Positions 521-17,257 of a DNA stretch of 64,000 nucleotides are shown piece after piece. Source of the DNA: Patescibacteria group bacterium. GTDB taxonomy: Bacteria > Patescibacteriota > Patescibacteriia > Patescibacteriales > JBAZCA01. The DNA is taken from contig JBAZUL010000003.1 in NCBI GenBank assembly GCA_041661405.1, positions 20,707 through 84,706 on the forward strand, in the 5' to 3' direction. The first letter of the stretch is position 1. Each line of letters opens with the position of its first letter. Under the pieces are notes generated by a model. That model was given only the letters and a program-made list of their open reading frames with translations, did not search any database and had not been told where the DNA came from. A program made the position numbers and the translations under genes.

Positions 521-525
521 ATAAG

Positions 526-1662: not shown

Positions 1663-1666
1663 TAAA

Positions 1667-2974
1667 TTATTTTTTTTCTTGCCGTAATATAAATATTATC
1701 TGGCGGCCAAAATATTTTGAAAAAAAAGAAAACCAGGCGTTATGCGGAACGTTAAGGCGCCTGCGCGAAATATAATAATAGCTGGGGTAATGCTTTACTA
1801 TGGAAAATCCTGCTGACTTAAATTCTTTTTTCATATCATCAATATTTCTAATATTTACCCATAAGGGGTGATAAGTCTTTTTTTTACGGCTATAATGGGA
1901 AAAGTTAGTGTAAGTAATTAAAATTTTTGTGTCCTTATTTGAAAGATTGCTATTGAGATATCTCAATAGTTCCCTTACCCGATCAATAGATAAGTACTCA
2001 ATGACTCCCGAAATAACGATTACATTAAAAATCTCGTTAAAAGGAAAGTTTTTAAAATTATCTTTTTCCAAGTCAAATACGGCGTAACGGCCAAAGACTA
2101 TTTTCTGCATAAACACATCAACGCCCGCGTACTTATAATTGCTGTTTTTCAGCATTTCTCCAAGCGAAGCCGGGCCGCACCCTATATCAATGATTGAACC
2201 GCCAGAACCGCCTTTAATAATCTCACCGTATATCTCATTTATTCTTTTATGCGGCTTTTTGTACTTTCGAGATTCGGCTGTCCAGTACTTATCCAATCCG
2301 ACGATAAACGGCTTCTGGAAATATGCCGCACCTCCGGATCCGAAAACCAGCTCGGCATCAATATTATTAATTCCCATAAATTCATCTACCGCCTTTTGGC
2401 ACCCTGGCCAGGCACGATAATCGTCAATGATAACATATCCGCCTGGAACGACATTTTCGTATAAAGTGTCTAGACAAAACTTTGTAGATTCGTACCAATC
2501 GCAATCAAGGCGCAAAAGTCCGATATCCCCAACCGACTGTTTGTGGGCGGGCAAAGTTTCGTTAAACCACCCGGGTACTATCTTTACCTTGTTTTTTTTA
2601 TTTCCCGTAACTTTTAATAATACCTCTTCAACATCCTCAATTTTGCACTCACCTTTATCTCTTTTATACTGCTTATGTGCTAAAATACCATCAGCGACAG
2701 AAGGCTCAGGCAAACCGGCGAAAGAATCAAAAAGCCACAAATTCCTTCTTTCGCCGTATTTATTAATAATCTCGGCCATTACGGCCGCCGCGCCGCCTTT
2801 CCAAACCCCGCATTCCACAAAATTTCCGGACATACCCTGTTTTTCAATTTTTTCGACGAGCTCATACAGTTCATAGAGCCTATCATGGCCGACCATAGTA
2901 TAACTCTCAACTTTTTTAAAAAGCAACCATTGCCTTAGATGCTTTATTTTTTTTATCGCGTCATTTAAAGTCAT
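1667..2974 (-). CDS. fusion of a TylF/macrocin-O-methyltransferase-like domain with a second class I SAM methyltransferase domain
   Basis: The N half has FVECGVWKGGAAAVMAEI, LWLFDSFAGLPEP, LRLDCDWYES and GGYVIIDDY, a TylF-family pattern. The C half has SAM motif I, IIDIGCGPASLG. The start lies 1 nt after the upstream stop. Confidence 0.8.
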   Translation of the reverse strand: MTLNDAIKKIKHLRQWLLFKKVESYTMVGHDRLYELYELVEKIEKQGMSGNFVECGVWKGGAAAVMAEIINKYGERRNLWLFDSFAGLPEPSVADGILAHKQYKRDKGECKIEDVEEVLLKVTGNKKNKVKIVPGWFNETLPAHKQSVGDIGLLRLDCDWYESTKFCLDTLYENVVPGGYVIIDDYRAWPGCQKAVDEFMGINNIDAELVFGSGGAAYFQKPFIVGLDKYWTAESRKYKKPHKRINEIYGEIIKGGSGGSIIDIGCGPASLGEMLKNSNYKYAGVDVFMQKIVFGRYAVFDLEKDNFKNFPFNEIFNVIVISGVIEYLSIDRVRELLRYLNSNLSNKDTKILITYTNFSHYSRKKKTYHPLWVNIRNIDDMKKEFKSAGFSIVKHYPSYYYISRRRLNVPHNAWFSFFSKYFGRQIIFILRQEKK

Positions 2975-2975
2975 A

Positions 2976-4271
2976 TTAATTAATATTTATAATATTCAGA
3001 ATTACCTCAATATTTTTTTTTGATAACATAATAGCCTTTGACCTGGCAGACAAAAAGGTTAGTTTGGGAGTATTTATTAAATTTTCAAAAGCATCTCTAA
3101 GGATTTCTGGGGAAAAACGGCGGATGTCTAGAATCAATTGGCTTAAATCTAAATCTTTAAAAATACCCGCGGTTTTCGGTTCGTAGCCGATAGCCATAAC
3201 TGACACGCCGCCAAGCAAAGCAAAAATAGACGAATGGAGCCTAGTGGCGATAAAATAATCCATTTTACTATACAACCGCAATAGGTCGTCCATTTCCAGC
3301 TCATCCTCTATTATTCTGACTCGCGCCTTAGCGTTATCGTCCAAGGCATTATAAATTTTTTTTGAAATAATTCTATCATCCTCGCTGAATGATGGTCCGA
3401 CTGATTGCGGCATTAAATAAAACCGGAATCCCCGAAGAGTATACTCGTTAATAAACGATATTAGAGAGCTTATGTAGACTTGAAAATCTTTTTTCTTTGA
3501 CCATGACCTGACAGTGAGACCGACACAAATGTGGCCATTTTTTTTATCTTCAATGGCTCCATAAAATGCTTTATTCTTGCCGCTCCCTTCATCGCTCATT
3601 TTAAGTAAAAATGCCGAATCGCCCGTTAAAATAACGTTTTTATAGAGACTAAGTTGATTTTTTAAAAAACTCATTGAATCCGTCTCTCTGACGGTAATCA
3701 GCGGGAACCGGCGCATAGCGCGACGCATAATAAATTTTGAGTATAAATTATTTATGGGGCCAAAAGACTGCGCCGATAGAATAACATTCTTTTTGAACTT
3801 AGCGCCGACAATAAGCTGATGTAAATGGCTCATAATTCCTACGGGTAAAATATTGATCCGGCACTCGGGCTCCCGAAAAAAACTACCTCCTTTTGAGATA
3901 ATGACATCGCACTTCTTGTAAGCATCCAATGTTTTCAGCGCCTCGCCCGAACCGCTATAATACCAATAGGCTAATCGGGGAAAATTTAGAAGCGCTAAAG
4001 AAATATAATATTTACCAAAAAAGAATATAGCTCCTGCCTTATTGGTCAAAGAATAAAACCATTTGCCTTGATTAAACTTAGGTAAATCAAGAAGAGGCAA
4101 AAAAAATTCAACCCCCGATGACTCCCACCATCCGCGATCATTTATATTGCGTCCGATGACACTAAAACGGAATCTTCTATTTACCGCCTTCAATCCTCCG
4201 ATTAATCCCAGAACTATCCCTAAGTCGCCTTTATTTTTAATAGAATGAAAGTTTGTAATCAAAATATTCAT
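2976..4271 (-). CDS. polysaccharide pyruvyl transferase (CsaB/WcaK-like)
   Basis: The ORF track gives 2976..4319. I prefer the ATG at 4271 (MNILITNFHSIKNKGDLGIV), which removes a 34-nt overlap with the upstream gene. The motifs ISKGGSFF and ATRLHSSIFALLGGVSVMAIGYEPK resemble the pyruvyl transferase family. Confidence 0.75.
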   Translation of the reverse strand: MNILITNFHSIKNKGDLGIVLGLIGGLKAVNRRFRFSVIGRNINDRGWWESSGVEFFLPLLDLPKFNQGKWFYSLTNKAGAIFFFGKYYISLALLNFPRLAYWYYSGSGEALKTLDAYKKCDVIISKGGSFFREPECRINILPVGIMSHLHQLIVGAKFKKNVILSAQSFGPINNLYSKFIMRRAMRRFPLITVRETDSMSFLKNQLSLYKNVILTGDSAFLLKMSDEGSGKNKAFYGAIEDKKNGHICVGLTVRSWSKKKDFQVYISSLISFINEYTLRGFRFYLMPQSVGPSFSEDDRIISKKIYNALDDNAKARVRIIEDELEMDDLLRLYSKMDYFIATRLHSSIFALLGGVSVMAIGYEPKTAGIFKDLDLSQLILDIRRFSPEILRDAFENLINTPKLTFLSARSKAIMLSKKNIEVILNIININ

Positions 4272-4285
4272 AAACAATAAAATGG

Positions 4286-5407
4286 TTAATTTATTAAAGA
4301 AACAAGTTGCCAGACGCACTTTTCTATGGTATATAATTTGCCCGTCTCTTTTGCCTTACTCTTTTGACTTTGAAAGTCTGCCGGATGTTTAATTACAAAT
4401 GTAATTATTTTTGCGAGCTGTTCCGCATTTCTAGTTTTAAAAGTGAAACCATTATAACCGTCTCTAACTAAAGCTGTCATGCCGGGAATTTCGGAAACTA
4501 CAACAATCTTTCCAAGCATCAATGCCTCAAGCAAAGATAGGCTAAGCCCCTCCCAAAGGGAAGGCATAACATAGATGTCGGCGCAATTTACTATTTCCTT
4601 AGCGTCATGCCTAGCTCCCAGAAAATGGACATGATCAGCATACGGACTCAATGCCGCCTGTTTTTTCAAGAACCGGGAATACTCATTCGTGTCGGAACCG
4701 CAAATTAAAAAATGAATTCTCGGATTTTCATCAACAACCTTCCCGACGGCGGCAATCAGCGTTTCATATCCCTTTTGAGGATTAACATTACCATTTGATA
4801 CTGCTAATATATCTTTTTCACTAAACCCCAACTTGCCTCTCACATCGTCCGCGGCCGGTATATTTTTAATAAAATCCTCGGAAATACCGTTCTGAACTAC
4901 TACAATTTTATGCTTAGAAATTCCTTTTTCTATTAAATAATCTTTTACTTCTTCGGAAACCGCGACTATTTTATGGGTCAGAAAGGAGAGCAAGCGATCA
5001 ATAAAAAAATGCTTAAAGCTCTTTTCCTTTCCATAGGAATTATGTTCATAGGCAATAATTTTATCAAAACGAAAGGCCAAAAGGCAAGCCAAGCGAACCA
5101 AAGTATTTGCCAAAAATAAATGTGAAATTATCGCCTCGTACTTCTTCCCCTTAATTAATTTAGCAATCAGCCATATACCATGAAGCGAAAACCCTTTAGC
5201 GTCAATATTTATCAGCTTCCCCTGGGATAATTTCAAATCTTCATAAAAGCCTTGCTTGAGGCTTGGCAATATAACAAGCACATCCACTGCGTACCCCAAC
5301 TCCTCTAGGCAGTTTGCCTGGTCAACGACCAATCTTTCGGCTCCCCCGAAAGATAGGTTATTTATGACTACAAGAATCTTTTTTGGCTGTTTACTTCGCA
5401 TAATCAA
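4286..5407 (-). CDS. glycosyltransferase family 4
   Basis: 373 aa. N-terminal KILVVINNLSFGGAERLVVD and C-terminal PSLWEGLSLSLLEALMLGKIVVVSEIPG are classic GT4 motifs. Confidence 0.88.
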   Translation of the reverse strand: MIMRSKQPKKILVVINNLSFGGAERLVVDQANCLEELGYAVDVLVILPSLKQGFYEDLKLSQGKLINIDAKGFSLHGIWLIAKLIKGKKYEAIISHLFLANTLVRLACLLAFRFDKIIAYEHNSYGKEKSFKHFFIDRLLSFLTHKIVAVSEEVKDYLIEKGISKHKIVVVQNGISEDFIKNIPAADDVRGKLGFSEKDILAVSNGNVNPQKGYETLIAAVGKVVDENPRIHFLICGSDTNEYSRFLKKQAALSPYADHVHFLGARHDAKEIVNCADIYVMPSLWEGLSLSLLEALMLGKIVVVSEIPGMTALVRDGYNGFTFKTRNAEQLAKIITFVIKHPADFQSQKSKAKETGKLYTIEKCVWQLVSLIN

Positions 5408-7142
5408 GCTTATAGATATCTACTATTGGACCATTTTGTCTTAATTTCGGCAACTTAACGAGCGGATTATCAATCGCTCCTCCCAAATCCATGCCAATAT
5501 CATCTTCCGTGGCTCCGGCCGGAAATCTCTTTACTAAAGAAAGACTGGACAGATTAAGGTTAACTTCCTCTAATTTCCCCTTCCAGTATTGCAGATCATC
5601 CTTATTAAGCCAACTAATAACAAGATAATCGTATTTTTTATCAAAAATTTCTTTTGGTATTTCATTGTAGTGCGGAAAGGATAAAACATAATAATTAGGT
5701 TTGGGAAGCGCATCATCCGGCTGACTTAAGAGATAGAGCCGCTTTTTAGTGGCAAAAGAAGTGTGCGCGGTCATATCTTTTATTGTTTGCCGATTTTCGT
5801 TTAGCTCCAGGTGGCCGTCAAAATTTATGATATTCTCTCCCGCTGGCAGGTTATTATAAATCCAGTTGACAGCTTCAAGCCGGCTTGAAGGCAGTAAAAA
5901 TTTATAATCCCAAAGCAAGGGCGGATATAAAGATAAAAGGCATAAAACGGCTATCAGTAAAGCGGCTGCCTTTTTACGGCTCGTCCGCTGATAAAACCAG
6001 GATAATCCGAAAGCGGAAAAAAGCGCCAGCACAGGAAGAATGGGCAGCAGATAACGGGCGATTTTAATACTGATTGAACTAATCGCAAAAAAATAAACAA
6101 AAACAAAAGAAGCTAAAATTAAAAAAATATCCCTTTTTTTGAAAAACATAACAACAGAGCCGAATAAGGCGCCGGTCAAGAGCAATGGATCACTCTGCCA
6201 AAGCGCTCCCAGATAGTAAAAAATAGATTTGCTAATGGTGTTAGAACCGTCCGGAACTAATGGAGCGGACCGATCAACTAAAGGGCTGAAAGTTTCAGAC
6301 AAATTAAGCATCTTATTCGGATTAGGGAATAATCCCCCGAGGTAATGGATAAAGCCGTAGGTGTTTAAAAAATAAACTATTAGATAAACAACGGTAAAAA
6401 TAAGATTGGCCGACCAAAAATACGGATTAATAATAATATTCTTAATCTTTTCTTTTTTATTCTTTAAATAATGCGCGGCTAAAAATGAAACATACGCAAA
6501 AATTCCTACCACGTGCGTGCCAAAAGCCAGGCCAATAGAGAGACCGCACCATAAATAATGCTTAATTTTAGCCGACGGCGCCTGATAAAAATCAATAATC
6601 ATATACAAAGCCAAAAGTACGGTAAGCGTTTGCGGTAGCCAAACTCTTGCGAAGTGCGAGGCCTGGATAAAAAGCAAACTGGAAGAAAGTAAAAAAACCG
6701 ACAATAAAGAAACTAATTTATTATTAAACAACTTCTTGCTAATCCTGTATAAAAAGTAGAGGCAAGCCAAGCCGGCAAGAACAGATATAAATCGCCCGAG
6801 AGGTAAAAATTTCGCGAATTCAACTTGGCCGAATCGCTCAAGCGCCGCCAGACTGGGAAAAAGGCCGGACAGGCGCATTATAAATAACGCAATTGCGAAA
6901 AACGGCAAGTAAAGATAAGCGCCTAATGATAAATGATAAAATGAAGGATAATTCGGCCGCAGGCTGTGGCCCGCGATCATTTTCAGCGCCGCGGATAAGA
7001 GCGGCGCTTCATCGCCGGTAGTATTAAAAAGCGAATAGTTAAAAAAGATACCGGCCGATGCCATGATAAAATACGCCGCCATAATAACCAGCAAGGCATT
7101 TTTCTGCCAAAAATCTTTTTGCCAAATATTATTCATTTTCAT
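5391..7142 (-). CDS. GT-C fold polyprenyl-phosphate-sugar dependent glycosyltransferase (ArnT/PMT, GT39/GT83-like)
   Basis: 583 aa with about 12 predicted TM helices. The acidic first-loop motif TGDEAPLL is typical of GT-C enzymes. There is a C-terminal soluble domain of about 130 aa. The ATGA start/stop overlap with the upstream LAB_N gene suggests translational coupling. Confidence 0.75.
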   Translation of the reverse strand: MKMNNIWQKDFWQKNALLVIMAAYFIMASAGIFFNYSLFNTTGDEAPLLSAALKMIAGHSLRPNYPSFYHLSLGAYLYLPFFAIALFIMRLSGLFPSLAALERFGQVEFAKFLPLGRFISVLAGLACLYFLYRISKKLFNNKLVSLLSVFLLSSSLLFIQASHFARVWLPQTLTVLLALYMIIDFYQAPSAKIKHYLWCGLSIGLAFGTHVVGIFAYVSFLAAHYLKNKKEKIKNIIINPYFWSANLIFTVVYLIVYFLNTYGFIHYLGGLFPNPNKMLNLSETFSPLVDRSAPLVPDGSNTISKSIFYYLGALWQSDPLLLTGALFGSVVMFFKKRDIFLILASFVFVYFFAISSISIKIARYLLPILPVLALFSAFGLSWFYQRTSRKKAAALLIAVLCLLSLYPPLLWDYKFLLPSSRLEAVNWIYNNLPAGENIINFDGHLELNENRQTIKDMTAHTSFATKKRLYLLSQPDDALPKPNYYVLSFPHYNEIPKEIFDKKYDYLVISWLNKDDLQYWKGKLEEVNLNLSSLSLVKRFPAGATEDDIGMDLGGAIDNPLVKLPKLRQNGPIVDIYKLDYAK

Positions 7143-7432
7143 GCTTTTTTATTAACTTCATCATTGCCCTTAGATAGCATAATATTTCTTACATAAATCA
7201 ACAGCCCCAGACCCTGACCCAAAGAAAAGACAATATCTTTGATATGGATGGCATAAATAAAGAGAATCACGCCTCCGGCAATGCTAAAGTACCAAAAGGA
7301 AAAAGGAAAGACGCTTTTTTTGTGCTTTTCAGAATGAAGCCATTGGATAAAGAACCTCAAAAAAAACATAAATTGGCCGAAAAAACCAAGAATAACCCAA
7401 AAATTCATGTTTTTACCGATTAAACCTGACAT
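7139..7432 (-). CDS. lipid-A-biosynthesis N-terminal (LAB_N) domain small membrane protein
   Basis: 97 aa. ILGFFGQFMFFLRFFIQWLHSEKHKKSVFPFSFWYFSIAGGVILFIYAIHIKDIVFSLGQGLGLLIYVRNIML follows the LAB_N pattern (GQ..F..RF..QW..SE...S..P..FW). An alternative start is the ATG at 7408. Confidence 0.8.
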   Translation of the reverse strand: MSGLIGKNMNFWVILGFFGQFMFFLRFFIQWLHSEKHKKSVFPFSFWYFSIAGGVILFIYAIHIKDIVFSLGQGLGLLIYVRNIMLSKGNDEVNKKA

Positions 7433-7441
7433 AAGCTACAG

Positions 7442-9070
7442 TTAAAAATTAAAAATCCGGCGCAGGGAGCATCCCCCGCGCGAACCGCTAAACTCTTTTT
7501 CTGCCCGGCCGCCATTATCTTCCACTTCCTGGGAGGTAAAAAACTTAGAACTGGGAATAAAATTATACGAAGTTTTTTGCTCGCAAAAAAAATCTTTTTC
7601 CTTGATTATTTTACTAATCCAATCTTTAACTATTAAAGAATCATTGTTAATAATAAATTCCCGTTTAAATAAAATATGTGACGGGTCTTTATAGCTGATC
7701 ATTTTTTTTCTTAAAAAATCCTTTAAGAATGCCTGCCAGTTGCTGAATTTCCCGAAGACAATCTGCCAAGTCTTAAATAATATCATAATTGGCGTTTTCA
7801 TTAATGGCTCCTTAATCGGCTTTAACCTTCCGCTCACTGTAAGGCAGCCTTCCTCGCTCGCGATTTCATTAGAGTAGTCAAGCGCGCCGGAAATCAAGCC
7901 TCTCCCTGCTAGCTTAATTTCAACTCCCGAATCAAAATATTGACGGCCTGGTAAATAAAGCCGGAAAGCGCCTCCTTTGTATAGATTGGCCGCGAAATAA
8001 TATTTTTCGGTTTGTCTGATTCTTATGCCGGAATCTTTAAGAAAGATATTAATCCTCCTCGCGGTCAAATAGTCATTAATATCGGCGCGCTGGCTGATGC
8101 CGCTATGGCTCAGAGAAATTCCGGCCTGCAGCCAGTTATATAAAATATAACACAAATAACGGTCATCTAGGCTGGCCGGCCCGATGCCTGATCCGGAAGA
8201 AAGGGAGGCGATGTTAAAAGCAGTAATAATTTTAGCGTTTGCGTCTAAATCCGATAAATAAACAAAGCCTGAAGGAATCAGATACTCGGTATTGCGCGAC
8301 ATATATTCCCCTCCAACGGTAAAATTGGGGTGAAGGAAGTTAATCAGGAAAGCACAAGCGCGCTTAATTGAAATAAGAACATCCTCTCTTTTATCCAGTT
8401 CGTAATATTTCGCGAGATAATCAATCATTAGCGATAAATAGCCGACATCAGGCCCGCCATATTCTCCCCACCAACCTTCCGAAGACTGGCGGCTGATAAT
8501 TAAATTTAATTTTTCACCAGCGGTTTTTAAATATTTTTCACAGCTAGTCAAGAACGAGATTTTAGCTAAGGCAAAAACGCTTCCGGCCAGCTGATTAAAA
8601 ACCGACGTTTCGTTATGTTTAATGAGCCAGTCGGCCGCTTTTTCCAACCCGCCCAATATCTTATCGTAATCTTCAAGTTTTTCTTTTCCCATCAGGCCGA
8701 TTGTTTCCGCCAAAGCCGCGCTCAAGAAAGCCGTGGCCACGTAAGAGCTTTCGTTAATATACCATTCATTAAATGAACCGTCCCTGTTCTGAATTTTTAA
8801 AGCAAAAGAAAGTGAAGCATTAATCCAACCCAGTATTTTTTCACTATGATAATATTTATTTCCCGGAAAATTATGCTTATAAAGCAGAGCAAGAGTTAGC
8901 GCGGCTTCCTGGCAGCGGGCACTACTAATATCATTCGTGCGGTAATGCCAATAATCCCGGTCAAAAGACCCGTAGCTACCGGATAAAGGGTTACGATTTA
9001 GCTGACCCAATAAACGAGGTGCGTTCGCCAAGACTGATGACAAAAAAATGTTTTCAGGGACAGATTTCAT
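7442..9070 (-). CDS. uncharacterised protein, possible alpha/alpha-toroid fold (QW-like repeats)
   Basis: 542 aa with no TM helices or signal peptide. KIQNRDGSFNEWY and SRQSSEGWWGEYGG resemble the Q..DG.W repeats of prenyltransferase/terpene-cyclase-like toroids. The coding call is supported by its length and operon packing. The function is unknown. Confidence 0.6.
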   Translation of the reverse strand: MKSVPENIFLSSVLANAPRLLGQLNRNPLSGSYGSFDRDYWHYRTNDISSARCQEAALTLALLYKHNFPGNKYYHSEKILGWINASLSFALKIQNRDGSFNEWYINESSYVATAFLSAALAETIGLMGKEKLEDYDKILGGLEKAADWLIKHNETSVFNQLAGSVFALAKISFLTSCEKYLKTAGEKLNLIISRQSSEGWWGEYGGPDVGYLSLMIDYLAKYYELDKREDVLISIKRACAFLINFLHPNFTVGGEYMSRNTEYLIPSGFVYLSDLDANAKIITAFNIASLSSGSGIGPASLDDRYLCYILYNWLQAGISLSHSGISQRADINDYLTARRINIFLKDSGIRIRQTEKYYFAANLYKGGAFRLYLPGRQYFDSGVEIKLAGRGLISGALDYSNEIASEEGCLTVSGRLKPIKEPLMKTPIMILFKTWQIVFGKFSNWQAFLKDFLRKKMISYKDPSHILFKREFIINNDSLIVKDWISKIIKEKDFFCEQKTSYNFIPSSKFFTSQEVEDNGGRAEKEFSGSRGGCSLRRIFNF

Positions 9071-9077
9071 ATATAGT

Positions 9078-10025
9078 TTAGCTGTTAGTAGTTTTCGGGA
9101 CGCCGTTGTTAATTATTTCTTTAATAACGTAATTTTTTCTATCCGCCCCGTTTTGCCGAATGATCAGTTCCCCAAGACAACCTAATGAAAATGACTGCAC
9201 CCCCACGACAACTAGCAACATGCCAAAGATTAATAAAGGCCTCGAACCAATTAAAACGCCCTGAAAAACTTTTATCCAAAAAAGGTAAAATAGGATCGCG
9301 GATCCAAAAAAGAAAAGCGCGAGACCGTAAAGACCGAAAAAATGCATCGGCCGATCAATAAAGCGGCGCAAAAATAAGAGGGTTATAAAATCAAAAAGTC
9401 CGTTTGACAATCTTTTGAGCCCGTATTTTGTTTTACCATGCATTCTCTGGCGGTGGTTTACTTTAATTTCATTTACGCGCAAGCCCATATCGGAAACAAT
9501 TGCCGGAATATAGCGATGCATATCGCCGTATAGCCTGAGCTGTTTGGCTGTTTCTTTTTTATAGCCTTTATAGCAGCAATTCATGTCATGTATATTTGTT
9601 TTTGTAATGCGCTTGGTTATGCTATTGGCAATGAACGAAGCGAATCTCCGGCTAAAGCTGTCCAGTCTTCGGTACTTCCAGCCGCAAACCAAATCGTCGC
9701 CCTGCTCCAACGAATTAATAAAATTAGGCAGCTCTTTCGGGTCATCCTGCAAATCGCCGTCAAGCGTAATAATATACTCCCCGTCGGCTTCGTCAAAGCC
9801 CGCTTGCAAGGCCTGTGACTTGCCAAAATTCTTCGTAAAGGAAATTATTTTTACGCCAGCAATTTTTCTTAATTCCGCCAAGGTGCCGTCGCGGGAACCG
9901 TCATTTATAAAAATAATTTCATAAACCAAAGCGGTTTTTTCCATAACAGCCTTAATTTCAGCGAACAATTCGCCGACGGATTCTTCCTCGTTATAAACAG
10001 GAATAATAATTGAAATCTTTTTCAC
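9078..10025 (-). CDS. GT2 polyprenyl-phosphate glycosyltransferase (GtrB/ArnC/DPM1-like)
   Basis: 315 aa with ISIIIPVYNEEESV, INDGSRDGT and the DxD-type motif LDGDLQDDP. Two C-terminal TM helices (FFGLYGLALFFFGSAILFYLF and LLIFGMLLVVVGVQSF) match bactoprenol-phosphate sugar synthases. Confidence 0.88.
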   Translation of the reverse strand: MKKISIIIPVYNEEESVGELFAEIKAVMEKTALVYEIIFINDGSRDGTLAELRKIAGVKIISFTKNFGKSQALQAGFDEADGEYIITLDGDLQDDPKELPNFINSLEQGDDLVCGWKYRRLDSFSRRFASFIANSITKRITKTNIHDMNCCYKGYKKETAKQLRLYGDMHRYIPAIVSDMGLRVNEIKVNHRQRMHGKTKYGLKRLSNGLFDFITLLFLRRFIDRPMHFFGLYGLALFFFGSAILFYLFWIKVFQGVLIGSRPLLIFGMLLVVVGVQSFSLGCLGELIIRQNGADRKNYVIKEIINNGVPKTTNS

Positions 10026-10029
10026 ATGT

Positions 10030-10674
10030 TTAATTGTTAAATTTTTTTACCAATTTATCAGTTAAAGGCATTATAACTTTTTTAATAAAATCGGGCAGAA
10101 CAAAATAAATCTTTTTCGCAGCCCTTTTCAACCGGATTTCCGGCTTTAATTTTTCACAAGGCCAAACGAATTTATTGACCGCCCACATTTCCTCCAGCCG
10201 GTACCGGCGCGGCATAAAAAGCGGTTCGGTTTTAGGATAACCAAAGATTAAATAAGCTACCGGCGAGTAAAGCTTCGGAATGTTAAAAATTTTCCGCAAA
10301 ACTTTTTTGCGGGGCAAATGGCAAATCCAGCAACCGCCCAATCCTAAATCATGAATGGTAAGAAGCATGTTTTGGATGGCGGCGGCCGAGCTTTGAAGCC
10401 AGTCGCGATATTCCAGGTTATCACTTAAAGCGGTGTTATAAAGAACTAAAATACCATAAGGAGCATTTCTCACGGCGCAAGAACCTCCAGCAGCGAAAAT
10501 TTTTTCCTTAACATCAGCATCATCAATAAAAATAAACTTCCAGCCCTGAGTATTACAGTGGCTTGGGGCGTGGATACCGGCATGAAAAATTTTTTCTAAA
10601 ATCCCCTGCTCTAGTGGCCGGCTGGAAAAATGCCTGATACTTCGCCTGGTTTTAATTGCTCGCTCTAGTTCCAT
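10030..10674 (-). CDS. nitroreductase family protein
   Basis: 214 aa. AIKTRRSIRHFSSRPL and HAPSHCNTQGWKF are nitroreductase-family N-terminal motifs. There is a basic C-terminal tail of about 45 aa. Confidence 0.8.
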   Translation of the reverse strand: MELERAIKTRRSIRHFSSRPLEQGILEKIFHAGIHAPSHCNTQGWKFIFIDDADVKEKIFAAGGSCAVRNAPYGILVLYNTALSDNLEYRDWLQSSAAAIQNMLLTIHDLGLGGCWICHLPRKKVLRKIFNIPKLYSPVAYLIFGYPKTEPLFMPRRYRLEEMWAVNKFVWPCEKLKPEIRLKRAAKKIYFVLPDFIKKVIMPLTDKLVKKFNN

Positions 10675-10677
10675 AAA

Positions 10678-11724
10678 TTATAATCCTGCCAAAATTTTAT
10701 CTATAAAATCAGACAGGCTATGATCCTTTGCCACTATTTCCCTTAAATCATTCCCGATTTTCGCGCGCTCTTCAGAACTTAAACCCATAATATATTTTAT
10801 CTTTTCACTCAATTCCATGTAATCTTTCTTCTTATACATCAATCTCCCGCTATAATTCCCAATCACATCCTCTAAGGCTTCATTGCAGGTTAGAATTGGC
10901 AGTCCGGCGGCCATGGCTTCAAGGATTGCCTTATCAAGGCTTCCGGTAAGACCCATATTCACGAATAAATCAGCTTCATTCAGGGCCGGCGCAATTTCCC
11001 GGTTCGGCAGAGAACCCCTGAAATTTATCGCGTCTTCCAATTTTTTTTCCTTTACCATCTCTCTCAATTTTCCCAGATATTCTTTCTGCCCCGGCGTCCC
11101 CGGACCACCAATAATATCCACCTTAACCTTCGCATTCTGCCTAACTAATGCTTCCGCCGCCCGGATCAATGTTTCATAATCCTTGGATGGTGAAATTCTT
11201 CCAATAGTTATAATCTTGAATCTATTATTTTTAATTCTTAATTTATCATTCTTAATTCCGTCAACGTCAATCCCCTGCCCGACCACTTTAATCTTTATAC
11301 TGTCTATCCGGCAACCGCTCTTAGTTGAAGTAAAAATTACATGAGTCAGCTTTTCGGCGATTCTTAAACCAATAGGAACATATCCGTGCGCATACCATAA
11401 AGCAACTTTCTTTCTTAATATTCGCCAATAAACAGCACCGAGAATGATGTATTCATAATTCATGTGCACAAAGACTTTATCATAATCCTGACGATTTTGC
11501 CAGATGTGCTTATAAAAATTAAAAAGATATGCAATCCTTGATTTACGCCTTTCTTTACCTAAGCTTAACACCCTCACATTGTCCGGCAAACAATATTTCC
11601 CGCTTTTCAAGCACACTACCGTAACCCGCTCGCATTTTTTGGCAAAACCGGCAATCCAGCCGTGCATAAAACCGAGTACGTCGTCTTTATTGTCAACAGT
11701 CTGGGTAAGAATTAATAATTTCAT
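10678..11724 (-). CDS. glycosyltransferase family 4
   Basis: 348 aa. The C-terminal GLTGSLDKAILEAMAAGLPILTCNEA is a GT4-type motif. Confidence 0.82.
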   Translation of the reverse strand: MKLLILTQTVDNKDDVLGFMHGWIAGFAKKCERVTVVCLKSGKYCLPDNVRVLSLGKERRKSRIAYLFNFYKHIWQNRQDYDKVFVHMNYEYIILGAVYWRILRKKVALWYAHGYVPIGLRIAEKLTHVIFTSTKSGCRIDSIKIKVVGQGIDVDGIKNDKLRIKNNRFKIITIGRISPSKDYETLIRAAEALVRQNAKVKVDIIGGPGTPGQKEYLGKLREMVKEKKLEDAINFRGSLPNREIAPALNEADLFVNMGLTGSLDKAILEAMAAGLPILTCNEALEDVIGNYSGRLMYKKKDYMELSEKIKYIMGLSSEERAKIGNDLREIVAKDHSLSDFIDKILAGL

Positions 11725-11794
11725 AATCGCGTTAATTTTTGATTGGCGCTATTTTTTAGGCATAGCCCAAAAAACCACAGCAACTGCCTATACG

Positions 11795-12901
11795 TTATAA
11801 CCAGGATTTTTTATACTGACGCAAATATTCCTCTTTATCCGCCAGTTTTTTTATTGTTTCGGCCGCCCGACGGGTTAAACTTTCCCCAAGCTTATGATCA
11901 CCCAGTACCCTGATAATCGTCTGGCTCAAAACGTCTCCATCCCCGACCGGAACTATGAACCCGTTTTCCCCGTCCTTTACGAGCTCCCCGGCGCAACCGA
12001 CATCGGTCATGATAACTGGACAGCCGGCCGCCATAGCTTCAACCGCCGCCATGCCCCAGCCTTCATAATTTGAGGTCAAAAGAAAGAGATCGGCTGTTTT
12101 ATAATACGAGGCCAAATCATCGGTCCAGGTTTCCAAAATCACCCGGCTGGCTAATCCGTTTTTTTTAATCAACGATTTTAGGCGGACTTCCTCCCGGCCG
12201 GAACCAAAAATTATCAATCCGATTCGCGGCTGTTTTTTTACGACCTTCAACATTGCTTCAATGGCCAAACCGATATTTTTTTCCGGACTGAGGCGCGAAG
12301 CCATTAAAATTATTTTTTCGAATTGCGGATATTTGCTTTTTAAATCTAACTTAACGCTGGCGCCGGTAATTTTTCCGACATCCGTATAAATCGGCAAAAC
12401 AAAAATTTTTTCTGAAGCCACGCCCAGCTTAATTAAAGAAGTTTTGATTCTCGCGCTCACCACCCTTAAGCTGTCCGCCCTTTTGATTAATACTTTAGCG
12501 AGCATCACCCTTATTTTGTTAGTCCGCGACTGGCGCCAAAAATAGAGACTGAAAACATCGGTGTGAAATTGCAGTTGCAACTTAATCCGGTTGAAAACGG
12601 CTAATAAAACGCCGGCCAGCCCGGTCTCAAAAGGATCTTGGGTAAAAATAAGGTCTATCTTATTCTTTCTTAAAATATTTCGGGCCAGCCGCCAAGTGTC
12701 AAAATAATAAAACAAACGACAAGAGGAATTAGTCGGATAAATAACCAGCCTGTCGTCAAAAATAATGGGAGAAAACTTTTCCCTTGTCCAAACAATAACA
12801 AAAAGCTTTTCAACGATAGCGCTGTATTCTTTTAATCTCTCAAAGCTTGCGGAATTTTTCTTAAATATGGCTTTGTCTAAATTGATAACGAGGATATTCA
12901 T
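11795..12901 (-). CDS. glycosyltransferase family 4
   Basis: 368 aa with TSNYEGWGMAAVEAMAAGCPVIMTDVGCAGELV. Start and upstream stop overlap (ATGA). Confidence 0.88.
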   Translation of the reverse strand: MNILVINLDKAIFKKNSASFERLKEYSAIVEKLFVIVWTREKFSPIIFDDRLVIYPTNSSCRLFYYFDTWRLARNILRKNKIDLIFTQDPFETGLAGVLLAVFNRIKLQLQFHTDVFSLYFWRQSRTNKIRVMLAKVLIKRADSLRVVSARIKTSLIKLGVASEKIFVLPIYTDVGKITGASVKLDLKSKYPQFEKIILMASRLSPEKNIGLAIEAMLKVVKKQPRIGLIIFGSGREEVRLKSLIKKNGLASRVILETWTDDLASYYKTADLFLLTSNYEGWGMAAVEAMAAGCPVIMTDVGCAGELVKDGENGFIVPVGDGDVLSQTIIRVLGDHKLGESLTRRAAETIKKLADKEEYLRQYKKSWL

Positions 12902-14346: not shown

Positions 14347-14356
14347 AAACTTATTT

Positions 14357-15988: not shown

Positions 15989-16000
15989 AGGAAGTTAATT

Positions 16001-16100
16001 TGCGTGCGAGTGCCGAGCGTGCGAGCGAGACATCCCGCAGCCGCAGGCATGCGGGATCCAGCGTGTGAGCAAATTATTGAGCCTGCCCGATCGGAGCGAG
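16001..16100 (-). repeat. GC-rich palindromic intergenic element, copy A
   Basis: It lies between the ackA stop and the start of the glycan operon. The 30-nt block GAGTGCCGAGCGTGCGAGCGAGACATCCCG (16008..16037) and GGCATGCGGGAT (16046..16057) recur at 42925..42954 and 42984..42995. It has an 8-bp hairpin, ATCCCGCA/TGCGGGAT. Confidence 0.7.
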
Positions 16101-16124
16101 GAATAAAAACTCCTTCGCATTAAA

Positions 16125-17246: not shown

Positions 17247-17257
17247 ATATAATTTCT

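What the first reader, a model, noticed from the sequence alone, without database searches (positions are those of the whole stretch)
5391..10025. Extracytoplasmic glycosylation module: GT2 synthase + LAB_N small membrane protein + GT-C transferase + uncharacterised toroid-like protein
In transcription order the genes are a GtrB/ArnC-like GT2 (9078..10025), a 542-aa orphan with QW-like repeats (7442..9070), a 97-aa LAB_N-domain protein (7139..7432) and a GT-C enzyme with the DE first-loop motif (5391..7142). The last two are translationally coupled by an ATGA overlap. Known three-component systems (GtrA/B/V, CsbB/GtcA/YfhO, ArnC/EF/T) use a GtrA- or SMR-type flippase. Here the flippase slot is occupied by a LAB_N protein whose function is not established. 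The cytoplasmic orphan has no counterpart in those systems. This looks like a variant pathway for decorating a surface polymer or protein outside the membrane of an organism expected to lack LPS.
Basis: partly seen in the sequence, partly recalled or inferred. Interest (0 to 1): 0.58.

Follow-up and report, generated by a model that had tools for sequence, protein, structure and literature searches.

The report
Five-gene lipid-linked sugar decoration module
A candidate-phyla bacterium carries a conserved gene set that probably loads a sugar onto a membrane lipid, chemically tailors it, moves it across the membrane and attaches it to a surface molecule. Three of the five proteins belong to widespread families whose function nobody has tested.

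Summary
All four reported genes, their domains, the ATGA overlap and the GT-C "DE" motif are confirmed. The module needs redefining as five genes, because a nitroreductase-family gene (10030-10674) sits directly upstream of the GT2. It accompanies all 7 toroid homologues that are at least 45% identical.

The 542-aa protein is not an orphan. It belongs to a family of at least 1,100 sequence clusters in bacteria and archaea, about 500-600 aa, with no fusions and no characterised member. AlphaFold and Foldseek give an alpha/alpha toroid plus beta-sandwich like uronate lyases and dermatan-sulfate epimerase, with no signal peptide. It sits within three genes of a two-TM GtrB/ArnC-type GT2 in 61 of 85 loci.

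LAB_N has a SemiSWEET fold. GT2-LAB_N-GT-C is a common cassette (27 of 52 metagenome loci), including in cultured Azospirillum and Paracoccus. Next to toroid genes, LAB_N, GtrA or MprF-type flippase-like proteins fill that slot in different genomes.

Best reading: a three-component extracytoplasmic glycosylation system with a new cytoplasmic tailoring pair and a LAB_N translocation or hand-over partner. The chemistry and the flippase role are inferred, not shown. This is a new variant of a known kind.

The parts
10030..10674 (-). Nitroreductase-family flavoprotein (214 aa, no TM) with a conserved ~45-aa basic amphipathic C-terminal extension. Proposed redox partner of the toroid protein.
   Evidence: PF00881 at 9.4e-29. 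Nearest solved and named relatives are uncharacterised nitroreductases, albonoursin synthase, BluB and the FbiB C-terminal domain, all below family cut-offs. Found within 3 genes of the toroid gene in 27 of 85 loci, and in 7 of 7 loci where the toroid is at least 45% identical. Conserved tail with muH 0.66. Reverse look-ups: 2 of 3 divergent homologues lie directly upstream of a toroid-sized gene; one is confirmed as a toroid homologue and the other is inferred from size only, because no DNA was available.
9078..10025 (-). GtrB/ArnC-type GT2, a predicted polyprenyl-phosphate sugar synthase (315 aa, GTG start, two C-terminal TM helices, DGDLQDDP motif).
   Evidence: PF00535 at 1.2e-35. Full-length alignment to ArnC, PgfS and AglJ models below equivalog cut-offs. 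TM helices at 235-253 and 256-274. A GT2 lies directly upstream of the toroid gene, or upstream with the nitroreductase between or before them, in 45 of 82 loci, and 43 of 46 such GT2s have two TM helices.
7442..9070 (-). Cytoplasmic two-domain protein (542 aa): N-terminal alpha/alpha toroid (about residues 8-322) and C-terminal beta-sandwich (340-541). Uncharacterised family; proposed sugar-tailoring enzyme.
   Evidence: AF2 pLDDT 93.4 and pTM 0.93. Foldseek PDB best hits are PL8, PL33, PL12, PL15 and PL17 lyases and human dermatan-sulfate epimerase 1, at E 5e-8 to 1e-4 and TM about 0.5. No TM helix. Family size: 1,123 clusters at E<=1e-30. Universally conserved residues: N159, E203, Y204, D208 and R259 in 80 of 80; W200, Y211, D302 and R470 in 79 of 80.
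7460..7481 (-). Strongest terminator-like hairpin of the region (9 bp, 7 GC, then a T-run), inside the last codons of the toroid gene and just before LAB_N. May be a partial terminator or attenuator. Uncertain.
   Evidence: The overall count of terminator-like sites equals chance (21 found, 22.7 expected), so this is only a lead.
7139..7432 (-). Stand-alone LAB_N protein (97 aa, 3 TM, SemiSWEET-type triple-helix bundle). Proposed translocation or hand-over partner for the lipid-linked sugar.
   Evidence: PF07578 at 6.3e-30. AF2 pLDDT 77. The top 18 Foldseek PDB hits are all SemiSWEET or SWEET, with TM up to 0.82 and rmsd of 1.4-2.9 A for most (up to 6.4 A), followed by the mitochondrial pyruvate carrier. 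The top 3 profile hits in the PDB are SemiSWEETs.
5391..7142 (-). GT-C glycosyltransferase (583 aa, at least 10 TM, D44-E45 after TM1, C-terminal soluble domain about 410-583). Its start overlaps the LAB_N stop (ATGA).
   Evidence: PMT_2 at 7.2e-11 and PMT at 2.9e-4. Topology and DE conservation. Overlap. An NTGA overlap of LAB_N and GT-C recurs in 9 of 28 loci.
526..15988 (-). Surrounding co-directional glycan operon: GT4 (526-1662), TylF-like plus second methyltransferase domain (1667-2974), CsaB/WcaK-like pyruvyl transferase (2976-4319), GT4 (4286-5407), the five-gene core, GT4 (10678-11724), GT4 (11795-12901), B12-binding radical SAM (12898-14346), GtrA-GT4 fusion (14357-15988).
   Evidence: Genes beyond 16 kb are housekeeping.

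Best explanation
The region is the core of a three-component extracytoplasmic glycosylation system with an added cytoplasmic tailoring step.

1. The GtrB/ArnC-type GT2 transfers a monosaccharide from a nucleotide sugar to a polyprenyl phosphate at the inner face of the membrane. This is inferred from family and architecture.
2. The soluble toroid/beta-sandwich protein, together with the nitroreductase-family flavoprotein, modifies that sugar before export, most likely while it is lipid-linked. The fold is that of enzymes that abstract the C5 proton of uronates (lyases and C5-epimerases). Both alternative flavoprotein partners, nitroreductase and FrhB-like, belong to families with C=C-reducing members. 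My most specific guess is therefore elimination or epimerisation at C4/C5 followed, in this subclade, by flavin-dependent reduction. This chemistry is speculative.
3. LAB_N, a 3-TM SemiSWEET-fold protein presumably working as a dimer, helps the lipid-linked sugar cross the membrane and/or hands it to the GT-C enzyme with which it is translationally coupled. This is inferred from fold, superfamily precedent and gene position.
4. The GT-C transfers the sugar to an acceptor outside the membrane, probably the glycan built by the four GT4 enzymes, pyruvyl transferase and methyltransferases of the same operon, or a protein. The acceptor is unknown.
For: - Domains and topology fit each role.
- GT2-toroid linkage: a GT2 lies within 3 genes in 61 of 85 loci from many phyla of both domains, and at -1 or -2 on the same strand in 45 of 82.
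- Toroid homologues at least 45% identical always have the nitroreductase, a GT2 and a GT-C (7 of 7).
- The nitroreductase (27 loci) and the FrhB-like flavoprotein (11 loci) are mutually exclusive next to the toroid gene.
- Reverse look-ups from nitroreductase homologues recover a toroid-sized neighbour in 2 of 3 cases, one confirmed by sequence.
- Toroid fold matches uronate lyases and DS-epimerase, with a conserved polar/aromatic core of N159, E203, Y204, D208 and R259.
- LAB_N has a SemiSWEET fold.
- LAB_N sits between a GT2 and a GT-C in 27 of 52 loci, with no GtrA within 3 genes in 0 of 65.
- Near toroid genes the small-membrane-protein slot holds LAB_N (6 loci), GtrA (10) or LPG_synthase_TM (34), sometimes fused to the GT-C.
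- LAB_N and the GT-C overlap by ATGA here, and 9 of 28 loci elsewhere have an NTGA overlap.
- Literature precedent: LAB_N is in the MtN3-like/PQ-loop clan (PMC4499210, PMC3281891). CLPTM1L of that superfamily scrambles GlcN-PI in vitro, and MPDU1 is required for use of Dol-P-Man and Dol-P-Glc (PMC9169118). Cytoplasmic tailoring of polyprenyl-P-sugars and variable, never biochemically proven flippases are established features of three-component systems (PMC11127046). AglQ/Agl32 toroid epimerases act in a DolP-linked pathway (PMC12624080).
Against: - No experiment exists for any member of the toroid family, this nitroreductase subfamily or stand-alone LAB_N.
- 47 of 85 toroid loci have no flavoprotein nearby, so the redox step is a subclade feature.
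- UDP-glucose dehydrogenase is near the toroid gene in only 3 of 85 loci, so gene content does not support a uronate substrate.
- The toroid family has no conserved His, which most toroid lyases and epimerases use.
- TM-scores to lyases are only about 0.5.
- Gene adjacency cannot tell whether tailoring acts on the nucleotide sugar or on the lipid-linked sugar.
- In typical LAB_N cassettes the GT2 lacks TM helices (30 of 33), which points to an anchoring role.
- The window and L004 contain both LAB_N and a GtrA domain or gene.
- 39 of 85 toroid loci show none of the three flippase candidates within 6 genes.
Confidence: 0.55

Rival explanations
1. LAB_N is not a flippase. It is the membrane subunit (anchor, activator or lipid-acceptor presenter) of the GT2 synthase and/or of the GT-C, comparable to DPM2/DPM3 with eukaryotic DPM1 or the small membrane protein Rv3632 that stimulates mycobacterial PpgS (both recalled from memory). 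The lipid-linked sugar would then cross the membrane by another route, such as the GtrA domain of the GtrA-GT4 fusion or the synthase itself.
For: - In metagenome cassettes the GT2 directly upstream of LAB_N is short (228-258 aa), has no TM helix in 30 of 33 cases, and overlaps or abuts LAB_N. The same layout occurs in cultured Azospirillum and Cetobacterium.
- Chlamydial LpxB carries LAB_N as an N-terminal domain of a peripheral lipid glycosyltransferase (NF002173 match).
- A GtrA domain exists in the operon.
- The P. furiosus DPMS membrane domain may itself flip its product (PMC12992685).
Against: - In the window, and in 43 of 46 toroid loci, the GT2 already has two TM helices. LAB_N is nevertheless kept, separated from the GT2 by the toroid gene and coupled to the GT-C instead.
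- LAB_N has a transporter fold.
- The slot is filled elsewhere by GtrA or MprF-type flippase-like domains.
- The two roles are not mutually exclusive.
Confidence: 0.3
2. The toroid protein and nitroreductase act on the soluble nucleotide-sugar donor before the GT2 step, as ArnA and ArnB do before ArnC, rather than on the lipid-linked sugar.
For: Both are soluble, with no TM helix. Gene adjacency to the GT2 is explained equally well. Many loci also hold SDR epimerase/dehydratases, asparagine-synthase homologues and methyltransferases typical of nucleotide-sugar tailoring.
Against: - The toroid gene associates specifically with membrane-anchored GtrB-type GT2s and flippase-like proteins, not with any one nucleotide-sugar enzyme.
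- The minimal operons are GT2-toroid-LPG_synthase_TM, or GT2-toroid followed by an LPG_TM/GT-C fusion.
- The toroid-linked nitroreductases have a conserved basic amphipathic tail that would suit a membrane surface.
- No known nucleotide-sugar pathway uses this fold (from memory).
Confidence: 0.2
3. The toroid protein is a hydrolase or quality-control enzyme that releases the polyprenyl-phosphate carrier from unused or wrong lipid-linked sugars, functionally like B. subtilis UshA. It would not be a biosynthetic tailoring enzyme.
For: The alpha/alpha-toroid superfamily includes many glycoside hydrolases; GH127, GH9 and GH88 appear among weaker fold or profile hits. The family has many invariant Asp and Glu residues. 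Carrier-recycling hydrolases for UndP-sugars are known (PMC11898649). The toroid gene occurs without a flavoprotein in 47 of 85 loci.
Against: Its position between synthase and flippase or GT-C in tight, often overlapping operons suggests an on-pathway step. A dedicated flavoprotein partner in the window's subclade is hard to explain for a hydrolase. UshA is an alpha/beta hydrolase under stress control, not operonic with the synthase.
Confidence: 0.1
4. The toroid protein binds or modifies the polyprenyl lipid rather than the sugar (terpene-cyclase or prenyltransferase-like). The flavoprotein would then reduce an isoprene double bond, for example producing a dolichol-like saturated carrier.
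For: Two conserved QW-like motifs (direct reading). NCBI names some homologues 'prenyltransferase/squalene oxidase repeat' or 'terpene cyclase/mutase family'. There are weak SQHop_cyclase and Prenyltrans hits. The family is common in archaea and CPR. Nitroreductase and FrhB families include C=C reductases (CLA-ER; others from memory).
Against: SQHop_cyclase hits occur in only 3 of 60 members and are far below cut-off. The best structural matches are toroid plus beta-sandwich polysaccharide lyases, not double-toroid cyclases. I saw no DxDD motif or Zn-ligand set among the conserved residues, and the conserved core is polar, charged and aromatic, as in sugar-binding sites.
Confidence: 0.08

Closest known systems
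Gtr-type three-component glycosylation (GtrB/GtrA/GtrV of Shigella and Salmonella phages; CsbB/GtcA/YfhO of Bacillus and Listeria)
   Same: An operon-linked GT2 with two C-terminal TM helices that charges polyprenyl phosphate, a small membrane protein, and a GT-C that glycosylates a surface polymer outside the membrane (PMC11127046, PMC7389260).
   Different: The small membrane protein is a 3-TM SemiSWEET-fold LAB_N, not a 4-TM GtrA. Two extra cytoplasmic proteins, the toroid and the nitroreductase, lie with the synthase.
Arn pathway (ArnC-ArnD-ArnE/F-ArnT) and the related lipid A GalN/GlcN systems (FlmF2/NaxD/FlmK; LgmA/LgmC/LgmB)
   Same: The lipid-linked monosaccharide is tailored on the cytoplasmic face between synthesis and flipping. 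The window's GT2 best matches the ArnC model (1.3e-49). Cetobacterium has an Arn-like layout around GT2-LAB_N: two-component system, SDR, UDP-glucose dehydrogenase and GT39.
   Different: Tailoring there is deformylation or deacetylation by CE4 or YdjC enzymes, whereas here it is a lyase/epimerase-fold protein plus a flavoprotein. The GT2 score is far below the ArnC equivalog cut-off (169 against 529 bits). Patescibacteria are expected to lack LPS (general knowledge). Whether Bordetella LgmD is a LAB_N protein could not be checked.
Polyprenyl-phosphate pentofuranose systems (mycobacterial DPA pathway with DprE1/DprE2 and Rv3789; Citrobacter youngae O-antigen ORF15/ORF13/ORF14/ORF12)
   Same: Redox or epimerase enzymes without signal peptides modify the polyprenyl-P-sugar before export. 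The flippase family differs between systems (SMR/GtrA or MATE) and is assigned by context only. A GT-C performs the final transfer (PMC11127046).
   Different: The synthase there is PRPP-dependent, not a GT2. The tailoring enzymes are a VAO-type flavoenzyme plus an SDR, or an SDR alone, not a toroid plus a nitroreductase.
Eukaryotic DPM1/ALG5 - MPDU1 - lumenal GT-C enzymes (ALG3/9/12, PMTs)
   Same: A GT2 synthase, a PQ-loop-superfamily membrane protein needed for use of the monosaccharide-P-polyprenol, and GT-C transferases including the PMT family (PMC3281891, PMC9169118). LAB_N is in the same Pfam clan (PMC4499210) and has the same triple-helix-bundle fold.
   Different: MPDU1 has 7 TM helices (two bundles) and LAB_N has 3, presumably forming a dimer. 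No direct LAB_N-MPDU1 comparison was made here. MPDU1's own mechanism is unknown.
Toroid plus beta-sandwich uronate lyases (PL8, PL12, PL15, PL17, PL21, PL33) and dermatan-sulfate epimerase 1
   Same: Two-domain architecture, and best Foldseek matches at E 5e-8 to 1e-4. Conserved Asn, Tyr and Arg residues at the starts of inner helices.
   Different: The protein is cytoplasmic and sits in a biosynthetic operon. No Pfam membership; only motif-level hits to Pec_lyase in 29 of 60 members. No conserved His. TM-scores are only about 0.5. Activity is untested.
AglQ / Agl32 (haloarchaeal GlcA epimerases of N-glycosylation)
   Same: Cytoplasmic alpha/alpha-barrel enzymes that change the identity of a uronic acid in a dolichol-phosphate-linked glycan pathway (PMC3827465, PMC12624080).
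   Different: They are single-domain proteins (Agl32 is 372 aa) resembling cellobiose 2-epimerase, they act on an oligosaccharide, and no flavoprotein partner is reported. No sequence comparison with the 542-aa family was possible here.

Membership tests
GtrB/ArnC/DPMS-type polyprenyl-phosphate glycosyltransferase (GT2) | GT-A catalytic domain of family GT2 with the D-x-D / DxDLQxxP-type motif | tested here: met
   PF00535 at 1.2e-35, 123 bits against a cut-off of 23.3. The sequence reads ...LDGDLQDDP...; compare the DADxQHPP motif of DPMS (PMC12992685).
GtrB/ArnC/DPMS-type polyprenyl-phosphate glycosyltransferase (GT2) | Two C-terminal transmembrane helices after the catalytic domain | tested here: met
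   Hydropathy analysis places TM helices at 235-253 and 256-274. The protein aligns with ArnC model positions 5-313 of 316.
GtrB/ArnC/DPMS-type polyprenyl-phosphate glycosyltransferase (GT2) | Orthology to a characterised enzyme (a score above an NCBIfam equivalog cut-off), which would name the sugar | tested here: not met
   ArnC 169 against 529 bits; PgfS 136 against 500; AglJ 100 against 325. The donor sugar is unknown.
GtrB/ArnC/DPMS-type polyprenyl-phosphate glycosyltransferase (GT2) | Product is a polyprenyl-monophosphate sugar | not testable with these tools
   Requires enzymology or lipid mass spectrometry.
LAB_N (PF07578) | Match to the Pfam model above its gathering score | tested here: met
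   103.6 bits against 26.7, covering model positions 1-71 of 71. All 48 aligned homologues match.
SemiSWEET / PQ-loop (MtN3-like clan) triple-helix bundle | 3-TM bundle superimposable on SemiSWEET structures | tested here: met
   AF2 model has pLDDT 77 and three helices. The top 18 Foldseek PDB hits are SemiSWEET or SWEET, with TM up to 0.82 and rmsd of 1.4-2.9 A for most (up to 6.4 A). The E-values are modest (0.018 and above) because the protein is small.
SemiSWEET / PQ-loop (MtN3-like clan) triple-helix bundle | Significant sequence-profile similarity and the PQ motif in TM1 | tested here: inconclusive
   The profile against the PDB gives SemiSWEETs as the top 3 hits, but at E 0.2-0.4. 13 of 48 members weakly hit MtN3_slv. 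Invariant Q30 aligns with the Q of PQ, but the Pro is absent. Clan membership is taken from Pfam as cited in PMC4499210.
SemiSWEET / PQ-loop (MtN3-like clan) triple-helix bundle | Dimer formation and transport or scrambling activity | not testable with these tools
   No complex prediction or assay was available.
GT-C glycosyltransferase (PMT_2 / GT39-like) | Pfam PMT_2 match above the gathering score and a polytopic N-terminal membrane domain | tested here: met
   43 bits against 26.1. At least 10 TM helices, followed by a soluble C-terminal domain.
GT-C glycosyltransferase (PMT_2 / GT39-like) | Conserved acidic motif in the first extracytoplasmic loop | tested here: met
   D44-E45 lies directly after TM1 and is conserved in 34 and 30 of 54 neighbouring GT-Cs. 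The orientation of the loop was not tested.
Three-component (Gtr/Csb/Arn-type) glycosylation system | Synthase, small membrane protein and GT-C encoded together | tested here: met
   All lie on one strand with gaps of 9 nt or less, or overlaps. The order is conserved in other genomes.
Three-component (Gtr/Csb/Arn-type) glycosylation system | Flippase component of the GtrA or SMR (ArnE/F) family | tested here: not met
   The slot holds LAB_N. The only GtrA domain in the operon is fused to a GT4 at 14357-15988.
Polysaccharide lyase / uronyl C5-epimerase with toroid plus beta-sandwich fold (PL8, PL12, PL15, PL17, PL33, DS-epi1) | Two-domain (alpha/alpha)n toroid plus beta-sandwich architecture | tested here: met
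Polysaccharide lyase / uronyl C5-epimerase with toroid plus beta-sandwich fold (PL8, PL12, PL15, PL17, PL33, DS-epi1) | Sequence membership in a lyase or epimerase family | tested here: not met
   The window protein has no Pfam or NCBIfam hit. Homologues show only motif-level hits: Pec_lyase in 29 of 60, DUF4962 in 2, Hepar_II_III_C in 1, C5-epim_C in 1. The profile finds no lyase in the PDB by sequence.
Polysaccharide lyase / uronyl C5-epimerase with toroid plus beta-sandwich fold (PL8, PL12, PL15, PL17, PL33, DS-epi1) | Catalytic Asn/His/Tyr(/Arg) set positioned at the toroid centre | tested here: inconclusive
Polysaccharide lyase / uronyl C5-epimerase with toroid plus beta-sandwich fold (PL8, PL12, PL15, PL17, PL33, DS-epi1) | Uronic-acid substrate | tested here: inconclusive
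   UDP-glucose dehydrogenase is near the toroid gene in only 3 of 85 loci. Asparagine-synthase homologues, possibly uronate amidation, occur in about 6-8 loci. L007 has a GH88 gene next to the GT2.
Class II terpene cyclase / prenyltransferase toroids | Family-level profile match plus DxDD or Zn-ligand motifs | tested here: not met
   SQHop_cyclase_C hits in 3 of 60 members, best E 0.002; Prenyltrans in 1 of 60. No conserved Cys or His and no DxDD among the conserved residues. Only two QW-like motifs.
Nitroreductase superfamily (PF00881) | Pfam match above the gathering score | tested here: met
   101 bits against 23.5.
Nitroreductase superfamily (PF00881) | Membership in a named functional subfamily (BluB, FbiB C-terminal domain, NfsA/B, IYD and others) | tested here: not met
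   All NCBIfam matches are far below their cut-offs: BluB 78.6 against 150, FbiB C-terminal 54 against 250. It forms its own ~214-aa subfamily with a C-terminal extension.

The most novel reading that the evidence does not exclude
Stand-alone LAB_N proteins are the prokaryotic, half-size counterparts of MPDU1. They would be the missing polyprenyl-phosphate-monosaccharide scramblases or hand-over factors that couple GT2 synthases to GT-C transferases. Separately, the toroid protein with its nitroreductase or FrhB-like partner would be a previously unrecognised two-enzyme system that rewrites a sugar while it is attached to the lipid carrier, for example C4/C5 elimination followed by ene-reduction, or C5 epimerisation. 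That system is spread from CPR bacteria to DPANN and Asgard archaea.
Probability: 0.22. Interest if true: 0.82.

Novelty: new variant of a known kind. Interest (0 to 1): 0.6.

Why it matters
How monosaccharide-phosphate-polyprenols such as Und-P-sugars, Dol-P-Man and Dol-P-Glc cross membranes is a decades-old open question. GtrA, ArnE/F, MATE proteins and MPDU1 are all assigned by genetics or context, and none has been shown to flip these lipids biochemically (PMC11127046, PMC9169118).

This work shows that a 3-TM SemiSWEET-fold relative of the MPDU1/CLPTM1L superfamily sits between the synthase and the GT-C transferase in many genomes. These include cultured, genetically tractable bacteria: Azospirillum sp. 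B510, Paracoccus marcusii and Cetobacterium somerae. The question therefore becomes directly testable in a minimal system.

The toroid family (at least 1,100 clusters, no characterised member) and its dedicated flavoprotein would add a new type of chemistry on lipid-linked sugars. That would bear on cell-surface glycans in CPR, DPANN and Asgard lineages, about which almost nothing is known.

Tried and rejected
- **Sequence searches with the 542-aa protein.** Pfam and NCBIfam give nothing. The family profile against PDB sequences gives only a spurious complement C4 TED motif match.
- **Uronate hypothesis by gene content.** UGDH lies near the toroid gene in only 3 of 85 loci. I treat this as not supported, though not excluded.
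- **Third redox partner.** In the 47 toroid loci without nitroreductase or FrhB I found none; the neighbours there are heterogeneous.
- **Domain fusions of the toroid family.** None appear among the best 150 of 2,455 hits.
- **Literature on LAB_N function.** I found none.
- **Bordetella LgmD.** The lead that LgmD (reported as non-essential, PMC4993483) is a LAB_N protein could not be checked. The source paper is not held and a later paper does not mention it.
- **Literature on heparinase-like proteins in biosynthetic clusters.** No hits.
- **Phage-borne LAB_N cassettes analogous to gtrABV.** None in 50,697 phage records.
- **Overall terminator count in the operon.** Equal to chance.
- **First ORF-picking pass.** It lost many short LAB_N ORFs and was redone anchored on HMM hits.

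Full report
**Observation.** The four ORFs lie on the minus strand at exactly the reported coordinates.
- The GT2 (9078-10025) matches PF00535 at 1.2e-35. It aligns over its full length with the ArnC, PgfS and AglJ models, but far below their equivalog cut-offs. It ends in two TM helices and contains an LDGDLQDDP motif of the GtrB/DPMS type.
- The 97-aa protein (7139-7432) matches LAB_N at 6.3e-30.
- The 583-aa protein (5391-7142) matches PMT_2 above its gathering score. It has at least 10 TM helices. A D44-E45 pair lies right after TM1 and is the best-conserved feature of that loop among 54 neighbouring GT-Cs.
- The LAB_N stop and the GT-C start overlap as ATGA.
- The 542-aa protein (7442-9070) has no Pfam or NCBIfam match and no TM helix. 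It carries two QW-like Q-x3-G-x-[WF] motifs.
- The window is a Patescibacteria MAG.

- A nitroreductase-family gene (10030-10674) ends 4 nt before the GT2.
- The five genes sit inside a roughly 15-kb co-directional glycan operon (526-15988). It holds four GT4 genes, a CsaB/WcaK-like pyruvyl transferase, a double methyltransferase, a B12-binding radical SAM gene and a GtrA-GT4 fusion.
- Beyond 16 kb the genes are housekeeping.

**The 542-aa protein is a large, uniform, uncharacterised family.**
- A word-indexed search gave more than 300 relatives.
- An exhaustive profile search of 1.84 billion representatives gave 1,123 clusters at E<=1e-30 and 2,455 at E<=1e-3. All of the best 150 are about 500-600 aa, apart from a few shorter, apparently truncated entries, and none is fused to another domain.
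- A scan of species-representative genomes found at least 414 relatives. They span Patescibacteria, DPANN, Asgard, Theionarchaea, Methanosarcinales, cyanobacteria (including Trichodesmium erythraeum IMS101 and Dapis sp.), Firmicutes, Planctomycetota, Omnitrophota and Deltaproteobacteria, among others.
- AlphaFold2 on a 60-sequence alignment gave a confident model (pLDDT 93.4, pTM 0.93). It has an N-terminal alpha/alpha toroid and a C-terminal beta-sandwich.
- The best Foldseek matches in the PDB are PL8 hyaluronate, chondroitin AC and xanthan lyases, PL33 and GAG lyases, heparinase III, PL15/PL17 alginate lyases and human dermatan-sulfate epimerase 1 (E 5e-8 to 1e-4, TM about 0.5). GH127 and GH9 follow.
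- Member-wise Pfam scans give only motif-level hits to toroid families: Pec_lyase in 29 of 60, TED in 16, GH127 in 7, SQHop_cyclase_C in 3.
- Across 80 homologues down to about 28% identity, N159, E203, Y204, D208 and R259 are invariant, and W200, Y211, D302 and R470 nearly so. They lie at the starts of the inner helices, as expected for a central sugar-binding pocket. No His or Cys is conserved.

**Gene neighbourhood of the toroid gene.** I called ORFs in 85 loci and labelled them with HMMs seeded from Pfam-annotated examples.
- A GT2 lies within three genes in 61 loci.
- The orders GT2-toroid (27 loci), GT2-nitroreductase-toroid (16) and nitroreductase-GT2-toroid (2) account for 45 of the 82 loci that have an upstream gene.
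- 43 of 46 of these GT2s have two TM helices.
- A GT-C lies within six genes in 47 loci.
- The nitroreductase (27 loci) and an FrhB/FdhB-family flavin/Fe-S protein (11 loci; Pfam) are mutually exclusive next to the toroid gene. 47 loci have neither.
- Partner type tracks sequence similarity:

| Identity to the window's toroid protein | Loci | Nitroreductase | FrhB-like |
|---|---|---|---|
| At least 45% | 7 | 7 (all also with GT2 and GT-C) | 0 |
| 33-45% | 34 | 19 | 4 |
| Below 33% | 44 | 1 | 7 |

- About half of the lowest-identity group has an LPG_synthase_TM gene.
- Minimal operons are GT2-toroid-LPG_synthase_TM, for example in cultured Phyllobacterium sp. A18/5-2. Another form is GT2-toroid followed by a single LPG_synthase_TM/PMT_2/CE4-deacetylase fusion protein (L007).
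- The toroid-linked nitroreductases form their own ~214-aa subfamily with a conserved basic amphipathic C-terminal extension.
- Starting independently from three divergent nitroreductase homologues gave this result. Two full-length ones lie directly upstream of a toroid-sized gene. One of these is confirmed at 40% identity and E 6e-116; the other, 544 aa, is inferred from size only because no DNA was available. A tail-less 195-aa variant has no toroid gene nearby.

**LAB_N.**
- All 535 relatives found are stand-alone proteins of about 90-110 aa.
- The AF2 model (pLDDT 77) has three helices. Its 18 best PDB matches are all SemiSWEET or SWEET structures (TM up to 0.82), followed by the mitochondrial pyruvate carrier.
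- The three best sequence-profile hits in the PDB are also SemiSWEETs, though weak. This agrees with Pfam's MtN3-like clan (PMC4499210; PMC3281891).
- In 65 metagenome loci, a GT2 is the gene immediately upstream in 43 of 57 and a GT-C immediately downstream in 31 of 60. The exact triplet occurs in 27 of 52.
- No GtrA, toroid or nitroreductase gene lies within three genes in any of them.
- The same cassette is annotated in cultured Azospirillum sp. B510, Paracoccus marcusii and Cetobacterium somerae. In Cetobacterium it lies next to a two-component system, an SDR and a UDP-glucose dehydrogenase.
- LAB_N overlaps the GT-C start by 4 nt in 9 of 28 loci.
- In these common cassettes the GT2 is short (228-258 aa), lacks TM helices in 30 of 33 cases, and overlaps or abuts LAB_N.
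- Next to toroid genes, the small-membrane-protein slot is filled by LAB_N (6 loci), GtrA (10) or LPG_synthase_TM (34), which NCBI calls 'flippase-like' (TIGR00374). 39 loci have none of the three within six genes. The window and L004 have both LAB_N and a GtrA domain or gene.

**Interpretation.**
- The firmest inference (about 0.8) is the general scheme. A GtrB/ArnC-type GT2 makes a polyprenyl-phosphate sugar that a GT-C uses outside the membrane.
- The toroid protein and the nitroreductase are best explained as a cytoplasmic tailoring step. This is conceptually like ArnD, NaxD/LgmC, DprE1/E2, Citrobacter ORF13 (PMC11127046) or AglQ/Agl32 (PMC12624080). I put this at about 0.5 for action on the lipid-linked sugar and about 0.2 for action on the nucleotide sugar.
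- The specific chemistry is a guess: proton abstraction at C5 of a uronate, giving elimination or epimerisation, with flavin-dependent reduction in this subclade. It rests on the fold and on C=C-reducing precedents in both flavoprotein families. CLA-ER and albonoursin synthase appear among the PDB relatives; the FbiB C-terminal domain, BciB and MurB are recalled from memory.
- Gene content does not back a uronate substrate, and the usual catalytic His is absent.
- LAB_N is very likely a dedicated membrane partner in the synthase-to-GT-C route (about 0.9). I put a direct role in moving the lipid-linked sugar across the membrane at about 0.45.
- In favour of that role are its transporter fold and the CLPTM1L scramblase and MPDU1 precedents (PMC9169118). 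Also in favour are its position in the operon and its replacement elsewhere by GtrA or MprF-type domains.
- Against an exclusive flippase role is its strong association with TM-less GT2s. That suggests an anchoring or activating subunit. In this window, though, the GT2 has its own TM helices and LAB_N is coupled to the GT-C.

**Novelty and value.**
- The architecture is a new variant of the known three-component systems. I found no publication on stand-alone LAB_N function or on the toroid family.
- The main value is that the unresolved question of how polyprenyl-phosphate monosaccharides are flipped or 'utilised' becomes testable with a minimal bacterial homologue of the MPDU1 superfamily in tractable organisms.
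- A second value is a large, cross-domain candidate enzyme family for lipid-linked sugar tailoring.

**Limits.**
- All functional statements are inferences from fold, family and synteny.
- My ORF calling and HMM labelling are crude.
- Locus-limited counts underestimate partners encoded elsewhere in the genome.
- Residue-level structural comparison and complex prediction were not possible.

Noticed in passing
window 14357-15988 (-): A GtrA_DPMS_TM domain (residues 17-133, 3.4e-22, four TM helices) is fused N-terminally to a GT4 glycosyltransferase. I have not seen this architecture described. It means the operon does contain a GtrA-family domain.
   Followed up: partly
window 7460-7481 (-): The strongest terminator-like hairpin in 1-18000 (9 bp, 7 GC, T-run) lies in the last codons of the toroid gene, just before LAB_N. 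It may split the operon into nitroreductase-GT2-toroid and LAB_N-GT-C parts. The overall count of such sites equals chance.
   Followed up: no
window 10030-10674 (-), residues ~170-214: Toroid-linked nitroreductases share a conserved basic amphipathic C-terminal extension (...KR..RKIYFxLP...FEKKFD; muH 0.66). A 195-aa homologue without the tail (L172) is not next to a toroid gene. The tail could be a membrane-surface anchor or a docking segment for the toroid protein.
   Followed up: partly
L022, L030, L040, L045, L049, L052, L055, L065, L068, L070, L085 (e.g. L055 11601-12848): An FrhB/FdhB-family flavoprotein, often with two 4Fe-4S motifs, sits next to the toroid gene in 11 loci that lack the nitroreductase. 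This looks like non-orthologous replacement of the redox partner.
   Followed up: partly
L007 9592-12468; also L018, L019: A single 958-aa protein in L007 fuses an LPG_synthase_TM (MprF-type flippase-like) domain, a PMT_2 GT-C domain and a CE4 polysaccharide deacetylase domain, directly after GT2-toroid. This is Rosetta-stone-type support for coupling of flippase and GT-C. L018 and L019 have an LPG_TM/GT-C fusion by my HMM labels; their CE4 domain was not checked.
   Followed up: partly
L091-L170 (metagenome); L173 (Azospirillum sp. B510 pAB510e), L174 (Paracoccus marcusii pCP157_03), L175 (Cetobacterium somerae p1): GT2(short, TM-less)-LAB_N-GT39 is a widespread cassette with overlapping genes. 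In Cetobacterium it is flanked by a two-component system, an SDR and a UDP-glucose dehydrogenase, resembling Arn- or Rgt-type LPS modification loci.
   Followed up: yes
L176 5979-10814 (Phyllobacterium sp. A18/5-2, NZ_CP104967.1): A cultured root-nodule isolate carries GT2-toroid-LPG_synthase_TM followed by an unannotated 428-aa multi-TM protein. The genes overlap and lie beside flagellar genes (motA, fliM, fliG, flhB). The PLSDB record has no annotation there.
   Followed up: partly
window 12898-14346 (-): A B12-binding radical SAM enzyme, nearest to the BchE, PhpK and HpnJ models but well below their cut-offs. Homologues lie within six genes of the toroid gene in 15 of 85 loci. Its role is unknown.
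   Followed up: partly
window 1667-4319 (-): A TylF-like O-methyltransferase fused to a second class I methyltransferase domain (435 aa) is followed by a CsaB/WcaK-like pyruvyl transferase (447 aa). This hints at a methylated, pyruvylated surface glycan of the kind that anchors S-layer proteins in Gram-positive bacteria.
   Followed up: no
L007 5812-7071: A GH88 (unsaturated glucuronyl hydrolase family) gene lies directly upstream of GT2-toroid in a locus that lacks the nitroreductase. This single case fits a 4,5-unsaturated uronate intermediate but proves nothing.
   Followed up: no
L002/L003 12169-17671: Downstream of a GT2-nitroreductase-toroid-GtrA-GT-C module lie a PEP mutase fusion, CDP-alcohol phosphatidyltransferases, a cytidylate kinase-like gene and methyltransferases. 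These suggest phosphonate decoration in the same cluster.
   Followed up: no
window 16125-17892 (-): An acetate kinase and a PTAC-type phosphate acyltransferase pair lies immediately upstream of the glycan operon, followed by a PfkB-family sugar kinase (17931-18926).
   Followed up: no
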